From assembly GCF_009914755.1 (NCBI RefSeq), contig NC_060927.1: a stretch of DNA of 64,000 nucleotides; one strand, 5' to 3'. The position numbers and the translations under genes are program-made. This DNA is from the human T2T-CHM13v2.0 reference genome, Homo sapiens. Under the pieces are notes generated by a model, which saw nothing but the letters and a program-made list of their open reading frames with translations, did no database searches and was not told where the DNA came from. Of the stretch, positions 4,322-5,046 are shown piece by piece (within the stretch, counting starts at the first letter, position 1; each line of letters opens with the position of its first letter).

Positions 4322-5046
4322 GGTCGCTTTTGCTGGGCTAGTAACATCAAGGATCCACCGCAACATGTCTGCATCGTCCCTCCCATAGTACACCCCAGCG
4401 GCAGGCAAAGCCCATGCTCCTGCCCCCCCGCTGGTCCAACATCCCAGCACCATATTGACGGCGGCTCTGCAAGACCCATGGGCCAGGCCCCAGCCTATGC
4501 CCCAAGCAGACTACATTATGGGATATCTGCCTTACTTTTGCCAAGGCCAAGTAATATGGGGCCTCAGCCGCAGCTCCAAGCACCTAGGCATCCCTGCGGC
4601 TAAGTCTCCTGAGCAAGTGGTAAATAATCTTTCAGCTGATATATCCGCTAGCATTTATTGTGGTCAGGCCAGTGTTAAAAGTAAAAATATCCACCAGAAA
4701 AGAACTTTGATTCTTTAAAGTCGCTTTTTTGTTGTTGTTGTTGTTTGAGACGGAGTCTCACTCTGTCGCCCAGGCTGGAGTGCAGTGGCACCATCTCGGC
4801 TCACTGCAAGCTCTGCCTCCCAGGTTCACGCCATTCTCCTGCCTCAGCCTCCCCAGTAGCTGGGACTACAGGCACCCACCACCACGCCTGGCTAATTTTT
4901 TTGTATTTTTTAGTAGAGACGGGGTTTCACCATGTTAGTCAGGATGGTCTCGATCTCCTGATCTCGTGATCCGCCCGCCTCGGCCTCCCAAAGTGCTGGG
5001 ATTACACGCATGAGCCACCACGCCCGACCTCTTAAAGTCACTTATA
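4322..5046 (+). pseudogene. Spliced RFK (riboflavin kinase) mRNA fragment inside the provirus: 5'UTR + codons 1-59 + a downstream [10 protein letters not shown] segment; split by an AluY
   Basis: 4518-4694 encodes [59 protein letters not shown]. Recalled human RFK reads MRHLPYFCRGQVVRGFGRGSKQLGIPTANFPEQVVDNLPADISTGIYYGWASVGSGDVH, giving 37/59 identity with no gaps. Upstream MPQADYI (4497) matches RFK MPRADCI. 4694-4726 encodes [11 protein letters not shown] ([14 protein letters not shown]). Confidence 0.9.
4727..5029 (-). mobile_element. AluY inserted in the RFK fragment
   Basis: AluY diagnostics (gcaagctc, ttcacgccattc, ggatggtctcgatctcc). TSD about tctttaaagtcgctt / tcttaaagtcactt. Confidence 0.88.

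What the first reader, a model, noticed from the sequence alone, without database searches (positions are those of the whole stretch)
4322..5046. Endogenous retrovirus carrying a captured, spliced riboflavin kinase (RFK) mRNA fragment in place of gag-CA/pro/RT
Seen in the sequence: between the MA/Pro-rich gag part and the pol connection/RNase H remnant lies a GC-rich 5'UTR-like segment, then an ungapped match to RFK residues 1-59 (37/59 identical to recalled human RFK), then a jump to PEKNFDSL(K)SL, then viral pol. From recall, RFK has an intron near codon 28, and it is absent here, so the source was mRNA. The layout argues against an ordinary L1 processed pseudogene: the 5' end is kept and the 3' end lost, there is no poly(A) or TSD, it is sense to the virus, and it joins non-adjacent viral regions. 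Inference: this is oncogene-style transduction by template switching (the FAM8A1/ERV case is a precedent), producing a non-autonomous gag-RFK-env element that may have spread as a family. I do not know whether this copy is annotated or described.
Basis: partly seen in the sequence, partly recalled or inferred. Interest (0 to 1): 0.92.

Follow-up and report, generated by a model that had tools for sequence, protein, structure and literature searches.

The report
Old retrovirus family carrying RFK mRNA
This is one of at least nine ancient, defective retrovirus copies in the human genome that all carry the same intron-free piece of the riboflavin kinase gene in place of their core and polymerase genes, a rare preserved example of a virus picking up host RNA and then spreading.

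Summary
Window 2553-8603 is a class I provirus with a tRNA-Pro primer site and a HERVIP-type env. Between gag p12 (ends 4305) and the RNase H part of pol (from 5083) lie about 475 nt of RFK cDNA. These comprise the 5'UTR and exon 1, exon 2, exon 3, 11 nt of exon 4 and 44 nt of 3'UTR. All three introns are gone and there is no poly(A). The Alu at 4725-5029 is a later, private insertion.

Eight further proviruses on other chromosomes share both virus/RFK junctions. Four have perfect, mutually different 4-bp target duplications, so the chimera formed once and then spread as a virus. One older copy keeps exons 1-3 whole. Seven copies, this one included, share a secondary 136-nt deletion.

Full-length relatives carry CA, NC, RT and the connection domain where RFK now sits. 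The 3' junction has a 7-nt overlap. The 5' junction lies within about 8 nt of the RFK mRNA 5' end. Both point to reverse-transcriptase template switching on a co-packaged mRNA.

RFK looks like a passenger, with no sign of selection. My searches found no paper describing this. It is a new member of a known kind.

The parts
2553..3072 (+). 5' LTR (TG...CA)
   Evidence: Direct repeats with 8090-8603 at 89-91% ungapped identity and 87% by BLAST over 538 columns. Edges read.
3077..3094 (+). Primer binding site for tRNA-Pro
   Evidence: Read. Its first nine bases, TGGGGGCTC, are the conserved start of human PBS-Pro elements quoted in PMC10602909 (passages read).
3095..4305 (+). Leader and gag MA/p12 remnant (open frame 3815-4603 runs on into RFK in a different frame from the RFK frame)
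   Evidence: Homologous to the leader and the gag region upstream of CA in full-length relatives L032-L035. The end of gag homology was defined with the older copy. No Pfam match.
4306..4599 (+). RFK 5'UTR and exon 1 (coding starts at ATG 4518)
   Evidence: blastn to the RFK gene: 71% over 292 nt, E 5e-47. Start corresponds to gene position 9044, 8 nt inside the 5'-most processed-pseudogene start.
4600..4693 (+). RFK exon 2, about its first 95-100 nt, joined to exon 1 without the intron
   Evidence: 81% to exon 2. Exon borders. Alignment.
4694..4718 (+). Last 25 nt of RFK exon 3 (PEKNFDSL) after a 136-nt deletion with a CCA overlap
   Evidence: 25 of 25 identical to the gene. The same deletion is in 7 of 9 proviruses and absent from C3:122.76M.
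4725..5029 (-). Alu, a later insertion, with a target duplication of about 13 bp (4712-4724 and 5030-5042)
   Evidence: Poly-T start and duplication read. Absent from the other 8 copies, which run straight from 4726 to 5032.
5036..5089 (+). First 10 nt of RFK exon 4, then 44 nt of RFK 3'UTR (about 349 nt of exon 4 skipped)
   Evidence: Exon 3/4 join and jump seen. 5046-5089 is 86% identical to gene 16260-16303. Present in all 9 copies.
5083..6015 (+). pol remnant: start of RNase H through patchy integrase pieces, overlapping RFK by 7 nt (AAGTATG)
   Evidence: Alignment to full-length relatives starts at 5083. The matching part of L032 carries RNase_H and integrase matches.
6016..8069 (+). env, broken (longest stop-free stretch 223 aa), gamma-type TM with a CX6CC motif
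   Evidence: TLV_coat 30.3 bits for 7443-7799. Immunosuppressive-domain motif is 22 of 23 identical to the HERVIP subgroup-a label in the supplement of PMC4724089. Frames.
8077..8088 (+). Polypurine tract
   Evidence: Purine run directly upstream of the 3' LTR.
8090..8603 (+). 3' LTR
   Evidence: Flanks AGAT / AGAC (3 of 4) as the target duplication.

Best explanation
The window holds one copy of a defective, helper-dependent endogenous retrovirus lineage of the HERVIP group (class I, gamma-like, tRNA-Pro primer site).

How it formed (inferred). Reverse transcriptase was copying viral RNA from the 3' end. It switched in pol, at the start of RNase H, onto a co-packaged spliced RFK mRNA at a 7-nt overlap in its 3'UTR. 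It skipped about 349 nt of exon 4 and copied exons 3, 2 and 1 to the 5' end of the mRNA. It then switched back to viral RNA in gag p12.

What resulted. The chimera lost CA, NC, protease, RT and the connection domain. It kept the LTRs, primer site, leader, polypurine tract and env. Proteins from full-length relatives could therefore package, reverse-transcribe and integrate it. It entered the germ line at least nine times, roughly 25-40 million years ago.

Later changes. The lineage lost a p12 segment and 136 nt of RFK on the way to the seven-copy clade that includes this window. The RFK piece was a passenger without a protein function.

Shown: the spliced RFK origin, the shared junctions, independent integrations, and replacement of viral genes. 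Inferred: the order of template switches, helper dependence, and passenger status.
For: 1. RFK origin from mRNA. Protein match to human RFK is E 2.6e-18. Nucleotide matches cover exon 1 with the 5'UTR, exon 2, exon 3 and the 3'UTR. All three exon joins are present while the gene has GT..AG introns.

2. One capture, then spread.
- 9 of 9 RFK-bearing proviruses share the 5' junction, the exon 4 skip and the 3' junction.
- 7 of 9 share the 136-nt deletion. They form a clade with 100/100 support.
- 7 of 9 have both LTRs, at 84.3-90.0% identity.
- Target duplications, read by eye, are perfect and all different in 4 copies (TCTC, CATA, ACAA, GATC). They match 3 of 4 in the window and 2 of 4 in one copy. 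Three copies could not be assessed.

3. Replacement of viral genes. In 4 of 4 full-length relatives examined, 2.9-3.1 kb lie between the points that flank RFK in the window. In L032 this stretch has Gag_p30 (54.9 bits), zf-CCHC (29.2), RVT_1 (59.2) and RT_RNaseH_2 (47.7).

4. Template switching.
- A 7-nt overlap is shared by the RFK 3'UTR and pol at 5083-5089.
- The 5' junction is at gene position 9044, while the 5'-most processed pseudogene starts at 9036. There is partial similarity between the p12 and RFK sequences at the joint.
- There is no poly(A).

5. Contrast with ordinary retrocopies. 4 of 4 full processed RFK pseudogenes carry all four exons plus the long 3'UTR and have no ERV flanks.

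6. Passenger status.
- The deletion shifts the frame.
- On the stem of the seven-copy clade the coding changes are 10 non-synonymous, 4 synonymous and 1 stop.
- The RFK ATG lies in frame +1 relative to the window's open gag frame in the 3 copies whose spacing keeps the gene's register: 241 nt as in the gene in two copies, 238 nt in the window.

7. Passage through reverse transcription (suggestive only). 14 G>A against 5 C>T among 26 stem changes, only 4 at CpG. Post-integration private changes are symmetric, with 18 G>A and 25 C>T.
Against: - The nine ERV rows are not recovered as an exclusive group. A 284-nt RFK fragment on CX:87.41M with no ERV flanks nests with the two old copies (83/87). 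The ERV-versus-gene split has 94/96 support, below the tool's star. The AU test does not reject ERV monophyly (p 0.224), but that does not prove it.
- The G>A excess is weak: p 0.11 for the stem alone and 0.027 when pooled with the changes shared by all copies.
- The RFK mRNA 5' end is inferred from pseudogene ends, not from transcription-start data.
- The full-length relatives found are only 64-77% identical to the window in LTR, leader, gag and pol. No close helper was identified.
- No primate orthologues could be examined, so ages rest on LTR divergence alone.
- The family name was not checked against Dfam or Repbase.
- All nine env frames are broken, so nothing shows whether env was functional at the time.
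Confidence: 0.85

Rival explanations
1. Classical read-through capture. A HERVIP provirus integrated upstream of or within RFK. A read-through or deletion-derived chimeric transcript joined gag to RFK and was spliced. Only the 3' junction was then made by non-homologous recombination during reverse transcription.
For: This is the textbook route for acutely transforming retroviruses (established knowledge, not tested here). The insert is in sense orientation, spliced, and has lost its 3' end. About 30 nt before the joint are C-rich and align weakly to sequence upstream of RFK (score 13).
Against: - The RFK part starts within about 8 nt of the 5'-most processed-pseudogene start, with no promoter or upstream sequence.
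- The 30 nt before the joint are p12 sequence present in full-length relatives.
- No provirus or solo LTR of this family was seen in the 20 kb fetched around RFK (only partly inspected because the output was cut).
Confidence: 0.1
2. An ordinary L1-made RFK processed pseudogene landed in one provirus. The locus was then copied by segmental duplication or gene conversion.
For: Four L1-type RFK processed pseudogenes exist in the genome, so RFK mRNA was retroposed repeatedly.
Against: - The insert has no poly(A), no duplication flanking it and no 3' end. It replaces 2.9-3.1 kb of virus instead of interrupting it.
- The nine copies lie on seven chromosomes (3, 4, 6, 7, 11, 12, 19), with three of them on chromosome 3, and have their own LTR pairs. 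Four have perfect and different 4-bp target duplications.
Confidence: 0.02
3. The RFK segment was kept because it did something for the element. It might have acted as a Gag-RFK fusion or truncated kinase, or as a cis element, since the captured 5' end is part of the RFK CpG island.
For: - The 5'UTR and exon 1 survive in all nine copies through two rounds of deletion that removed other parts.
- The gene segment has 36 CpG in 558 nt.
- The older copy has a Flavokinase match of 95.9 bits covering model positions 4-111 of 124, with a single stop.
Against: - The frame is shifted by the 136-nt deletion in the most successful clade.
- Coding changes on its stem are 10 non-synonymous, 4 synonymous and 1 stop.
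- The ATG is out of frame with gag.
- The C-terminal 40 or so residues of RFK were never captured.
- Nothing here tests a cis effect.
Confidence: 0.08

Closest known systems
FAM8A1 transduced by a HERV-K (HERVK14) element in primates (Jamain et al. 2001, seen only as cited in PMC5131818; the supplement of that paper lists two such loci)
   Same: A host mRNA fragment sits inside a human ERV between its LTRs. Microsimilarity is reported at the fusion points, and more than one genomic copy exists.
   Different: That case is a class II (beta-like) ERV. This one is class I (HERVIP group), has at least nine copies, and preserves an older, fuller intermediate.
ERV-Hako subtypes carrying SUSD6 and SPHKAP sequence (PMC11905727; abstract and passages read)
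   Same: Human ERV relics whose subtypes contain host gene sequence and spread as defective forms.
   Different: Hako is a group II ERV using tRNA-Trp. RFK is not mentioned in that paper. This element is gamma-like with tRNA-Pro.
LTR-mediated retroposition by double template switch (Tan et al. 2016, PMC5131818; passages and supplement file 2 read)
   Same: Same architecture: an internal retrocopy flanked by discontinuous LTR-element sequence, microsimilarity at the joints, no poly(A), and truncation at either end.
   Different: Their human list has only FAM8A1 (two loci) and one gene in MER4. RFK is absent from the text and from the supplement file that could be searched. They screened young retrocopies, whereas this one is 10-16% diverged between LTRs.
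Crocodilian ERVs with captured KIT-ligand and nectin3 mRNA (PMC4299795; passages read)
   Same: Capture of a spliced host mRNA by an ERV lineage, with several insertions and secondary deletions in some copies.
   Different: There the captured frames are under purifying selection. Here the RFK frame decays neutrally.
HERVIP / HERV-IP-T47D (Repbase HERVIP10F, FH, B3), the group that also gave ERVPb1 (PMC4724089, PMC8123466; passages read)
   Same: PBS-Pro. The env immunosuppressive-domain motif matches 22 of 23. LTR divergence of 10-16% falls in the 10-19% reported for the supergroup. Composition is A-rich (30.6% A).
   Different: Canonical members carry gag-pro-pol. This lineage lacks CA through the RT connection domain and has RFK cDNA there. 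The N-terminal third of its env matches only its own copies well.

Membership tests
Transducing (host-mRNA-carrying, defective) retrovirus / ERV | Host-derived segment lacks the introns of the source gene | tested here: met
   Exon 1/2, 2/3 and 3/4 joins are present. The gene has GT..AG introns at those points.
Transducing (host-mRNA-carrying, defective) retrovirus / ERV | Segment lies between the LTRs, in sense, and replaces viral coding sequence | tested here: met
   2.9-3.1 kb (CA, NC, RT, connection domain) in 4 of 4 full-length relatives correspond to the RFK segment.
Transducing (host-mRNA-carrying, defective) retrovirus / ERV | The same chimera is found at several independent integration sites | tested here: met
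   9 proviruses share both junctions. Four have perfect, mutually different 4-bp duplications.
Transducing (host-mRNA-carrying, defective) retrovirus / ERV | Cis elements for replication retained (LTRs, primer site, polypurine tract, packaging region) | tested here: inconclusive
   LTRs, PBS-Pro and the purine tract are present by sequence. Packaging function cannot be tested here.
Transducing (host-mRNA-carrying, defective) retrovirus / ERV | A helper virus able to supply Gag-Pol | tested here: inconclusive
   Related full-length proviruses exist but are only 64-77% identical in LTR, leader, gag and pol. No close helper was found.
HERVIP group (HERVIPADP supergroup) | PBS for tRNA-Pro or Ile | tested here: met
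   PBS-Pro at 3077-3094. The markers 'PBS: P, I' are given in the supplement of PMC4724089.
HERVIP group (HERVIPADP supergroup) | Env immunosuppressive-domain motif of the group | tested here: met
   The window's motif in frame 7443-7799 matches 22 of 23 against the subgroup-a label printed in the supplement. Compared by eye.
HERVIP group (HERVIPADP supergroup) | LTR10-type LTRs and Pol phylogeny | not testable with these tools
   No Dfam or Repbase library is held, and RT is deleted in this lineage.
L1-mediated processed pseudogene | Poly(A) tail, 3' end kept, and target duplication around the insert | tested here: not met
   None of the three is present. The four true RFK processed pseudogenes keep exon 4 and the 3'UTR.
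Riboflavin kinase (Pfam Flavokinase PF01687) as a working gene | Complete domain in one open frame | tested here: not met
   The window fragment scores 15.9 bits, below the 19.6 cut-off, and is frame-shifted by the deletion. The fullest copy has a stop and lacks the C-terminus.

The most novel reading that the evidence does not exclude
The captured RFK 5' end, part of a CpG-island promoter region, was not a mere passenger. It may have acted in cis, for example by protecting against silencing or serving as an internal promoter. That could explain why it survived two rounds of deletion and why the reduced form became the most prolific. This would make it an undescribed class I human ERV lineage that owed its spread to a host regulatory fragment.
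Probability: 0.08. Interest if true: 0.8.

Novelty: new member of a known kind. Interest (0 to 1): 0.6.

Why it matters
Host-gene capture is the founding event of retroviral oncogenes, but it is seldom preserved in genomes. In the papers I read, the human cases named are FAM8A1, one gene in MER4, and the SUSD6 and SPHKAP subtypes of ERV-Hako.

This lineage adds a gamma-like example with an unusually complete record. The source gene, four ordinary retrocopies for contrast, an early form with whole exons, a reduced form that amplified, and both recombination joints are all available. It therefore gives a natural data set for studying how reverse transcriptase switches templates and how defective viruses spread with helpers in the primate germ line.

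It also matters for annotation. Nine RFK-like fragments in the genome are viral cargo, not gene relics made by L1.

Tried and rejected
- Exon skipping as the cause of the 'jump'. Rejected: both ends of the 136-nt gap lie inside exons 2 and 3.
- The stretch after the Alu being purely viral. Rejected: it holds the start of exon 4 and 44 nt of 3'UTR.
- Gag-RFK in-frame fusion. Not supported: the spacing from a gag anchor to the ATG is 241 nt, as in the gene, in two copies and 238 nt in the window. That puts the ATG in frame +1 relative to the window's open gag frame. The other six copies differ by indels.
- CpG decay as the cause of the long stem of the seven-copy clade. Only 4 of 26 stem changes are at CpG.
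- C3:114.75M as a tenth ERV copy. Rejected: it is a full processed pseudogene.
- Family name via HUERS-P or HERVADP. The env motif fits HERVIP better. Table S1 of PMC4724089, which would classify this very locus, is an .xls file that could not be read.
- Earlier findings of this scan were not open.
- Literature searches that returned nothing relevant: 'riboflavin kinase' + 'endogenous retrovirus' (2 papers, one opened and irrelevant, the other judged irrelevant from its listed title and abstract start); 'RFK' + 'HERV' (3 papers, judged from the listing); 'FLJ11149' + 'retrovir' (1 paper, judged from the listing).

Full report
**What is in the window**

Direct repeats at 2553-3072 and 8090-8603 are 89-91% identical in ungapped blocks and 87% by BLAST. 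They begin with TG, end with CA, and bracket a provirus of about 6 kb. A tRNA-Pro primer binding site follows the 5' LTR at 3077-3094. A purine tract precedes the 3' LTR. The 3' half carries a broken gamma-type env: TLV_coat scores 30.3 bits for 7443-7799, and the longest stop-free stretch is 223 aa.

**The RFK segment**

- The frame 4389-4718 matches human riboflavin kinase residues 1-61 (PDB 1q9s_A, E 2.6e-18).
- I fetched the RFK gene from the same genome (C9:88540001-88560000, gene on the minus strand). I took its exon borders from the processed pseudogenes and the splice sites.
- The window aligns to exon 1 with its 5'UTR (4306-4594, 71%, E 5e-47), to exon 2 (4599-4698, 81%) and to the last 25 nt of exon 3 (25 of 25).
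- Beyond the Alu it aligns to 10 nt of exon 4 and 44 nt of 3'UTR (5046-5089, 86%, E 1.4e-8).
- All three introns are missing. About 349 nt of exon 4, holding the last 40 or so codons and the start of the 3'UTR, are skipped. There is no poly(A).
- The Alu at 4725-5029 is antisense. It has its own duplication of about 13 bp and is absent from every other copy.

**A family, not a single locus**

- A search of the whole genome with 4250-4725 gave 13 matches. A search with the Flavokinase model gave 8. A search with the fuller insert of an older copy found one more locus.
- After fetching 8.4-10 kb around them, these resolve into:
  - the RFK gene;
  - four ordinary processed pseudogenes (C1:240.23M, C22:41.26M, C1:211.89M, C3:114.75M) with all four exons, the long 3'UTR and no ERV flanks;
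  - a 284-nt fragment on CX:87.41M;
  - nine proviruses.
- The nine are the window, C3:161.40M, C7:23.79M, C19:12.01M, C12:126.62M, C6:86.18M, C11:5.865M, C3:122.76M and C4:143.92M.
- All nine have the same order of parts: LTR, leader, gag MA/p12, RFK, RNase H and integrase remnant, env, LTR.
- All nine share the gag/RFK joint, the exon 4 skip and the RFK/pol joint.
- Seven share an identical 136-nt deletion running from inside exon 2 to inside exon 3, with a CCA overlap. C3:122.76M has exons 1-3 entire (Flavokinase 95.9 bits, model positions 4-111 of 124, one stop). C4:143.92M has a larger deletion.

**Independent integrations**

- Seven of the nine have both LTRs, at 84.3-90.0% identity. The other two lack most of one LTR.
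- I read the target duplications by eye from the flanks printed. They are perfect and all different in four copies (TCTC, CATA, ACAA, GATC). They match 3 of 4 in the window (AGAT/AGAC) and 2 of 4 in C19. Three copies could not be assessed.
- Two rate conversions are quoted in the papers read: 0.4% LTR divergence per million years (PMC10602909), or percent divergence times 2.5 (PMC4724089). Either puts the integrations at roughly 25-40 million years ago.

**What RFK replaced**

- Searches with the leader and gag, the pol remnant and env found many related proviruses, with 177 to 409 first-look candidates and 40 scored each time.
- Four full-length relatives of 8.7-9 kb were fetched. In all four, 2.9-3.1 kb lie between the points that flank RFK in the window.
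- In L032 that stretch has Gag_p30 (54.9 bits), a zinc knuckle (29.2), RVT_1 (59.2) and RT_RNaseH_2 (47.7). Weaker RNase H and integrase matches lie downstream of the point where the window resumes.
- With the older copy as a guide, gag homology runs through the PPPY-coding part of p12. It ends about 47 codons before CA.

**The joints**

- At the 3' joint, the RFK 3'UTR and pol share AAGTATG (5083-5089).
- At the 5' joint (4305|4306), RFK begins at gene position 9044. The 5'-most processed pseudogene begins at 9036. The nine bases before the joint are partly alike in p12 and RFK.
- An insert that starts at the mRNA 5' end, ends inside the 3'UTR without poly(A), carries an internal skip and has short overlaps at the joints fits a known model. 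That model is the double template switch described for retroviruses and LTR elements (PMC5131818, passages read). It fits less well with read-through capture, which should bring in promoter or upstream sequence.

**History within the lineage**

- In a maximum-likelihood tree of the RFK part (14 rows, 557 columns), the seven deleted copies form a clade with 100/100 support on a stem of 0.13 changes per site.
- The two older copies and the CX fragment group together (83/87). All of these are separated from the gene and three pseudogenes at 94/96. The fourth pseudogene was found later and is not in the tree.
- The nine ERV rows are not an exclusive group because of the CX fragment. The AU test does not reject holding them together (p 0.224).
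- Of 26 changes assigned to the stem (421 sites compared), 14 are G>A and 5 are C>T, with 4 at CpG. Private, post-integration changes are symmetric, with 18 G>A and 25 C>T of 84. The asymmetry is only suggestive: p 0.11 alone and 0.027 when pooled with the changes shared by all copies. It fits passage through reverse transcription, with or without cytidine-deaminase editing. It also fits the A-rich make-up reported for HERVIP (PMC4724089). The window's internal part is 30.6% A and 20.1% G.

**Is RFK functional here?**

- The deletion shifts the frame.
- The coding changes on the stem are 10 non-synonymous, 4 synonymous and 1 stop.
- The ATG is in frame +1 relative to the window's open gag frame in the three copies whose spacing keeps the gene's register: 241 nt as in the gene in two copies and 238 nt in the window.
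- The C-terminus of RFK was never captured.
- I therefore read RFK as a passenger. A cis role for the CpG-rich 5' end is not excluded and was not tested.

**Which virus family**

- PBS-Pro occurs in HUERS-P1 and P2, MER52 and HERVIP10FH (PMC10602909).
- The window's env immunosuppressive-domain motif is 22 of 23 identical to the label of HERVIP env subgroup a, which includes ERVPb1, in the supplement of PMC4724089.
- Longer stretches of the window's env fragments are visibly similar to the HERVIP env printed there.
- The LTR divergence falls in the 10-19% given for that supergroup.
- I therefore place the lineage in the HERVIP group. The LTR type and the Repbase/Dfam name could not be checked.
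- The N-terminal third of env matches only the RFK-bearing copies well. The env may therefore be mosaic.

**Is it in print?**

- Full-text searches for 'riboflavin kinase' + 'endogenous retrovirus', 'RFK' + 'HERV' and 'FLJ11149' + 'retrovir' returned six papers. One was opened. The rest were judged from the listing. None is relevant.
- The genome-wide screen of Tan et al. 2016 lists only FAM8A1 (two loci) and one gene in MER4 for human. RFK is absent from its text and from the one supplement file that could be searched; file 1 could not be searched.
- Frith 2025 reports host-gene capture only for ERV-Hako.
- Subscription journals, Dfam/Repbase notes and Table S1 of PMC4724089 could not be seen, so prior recognition by repeat curators remains possible.

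**Verdict**

The phenomenon is known in kind. This case appears undescribed in the searched literature and is unusually well documented by its surviving intermediates.

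Noticed in passing
CX:87411105-87411388 (L010): A 284-nt spliced RFK fragment (part of exon 1 plus the first 59 nt of exon 2) has no ERV or 3'UTR sequence around it. In the tree it groups with the two old ERV copies (83/87). 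It may be the relic of a tenth copy or a truncated retrocopy.
   Followed up: partly
C3:161396200-161404700 (L024) and L010: The flanks of the C3:161.40M provirus match a continuous stretch on the CX locus, L010 reverse complement 1-100 and 106-487. This is a paralogous repeat that shows the uninterrupted 'empty' form of its insertion site.
   Followed up: no
window 4712-5042; L024 about 2967-3095: The window's Alu and an AT-rich insertion of about 120 nt in the C3:161.40M copy entered at almost the same TTTAAAG site, at the exon 3/exon 4 join of the RFK segment.
   Followed up: no
window 3632-3777: Three tandem copies of a unit of about 50 nt lie in the leader, upstream of gag (72-100% identity, family D5).
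   Followed up: no
window 1187-1625: Four tandem copies of a unit of about 100-119 nt (61-100% identity) lie upstream of the provirus (family D1).
   Followed up: no
window 6100-6720: The first third of env matches only the RFK-bearing proviruses at 82-90%. The remaining two-thirds match dozens of related proviruses at 75-86%. The surface subunit may have a separate origin.
   Followed up: no
window about 4273-4280; L030 2411-2560: The seven-copy clade lacks about 100 nt of p12, including the PPPY-coding stretch, that the older C3:122.76M copy and the full-length relatives keep. C19 and C6 copies carry a different short filler there.
   Followed up: partly
C1:240.23M, C22:41.26M, C1:211.89M, C3:114.75M: Four ordinary RFK processed pseudogenes have all four exons and the 3'UTR. 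The C3:114.75M copy is interrupted by an Alu-like insertion between exons 2 and 3.
   Followed up: partly
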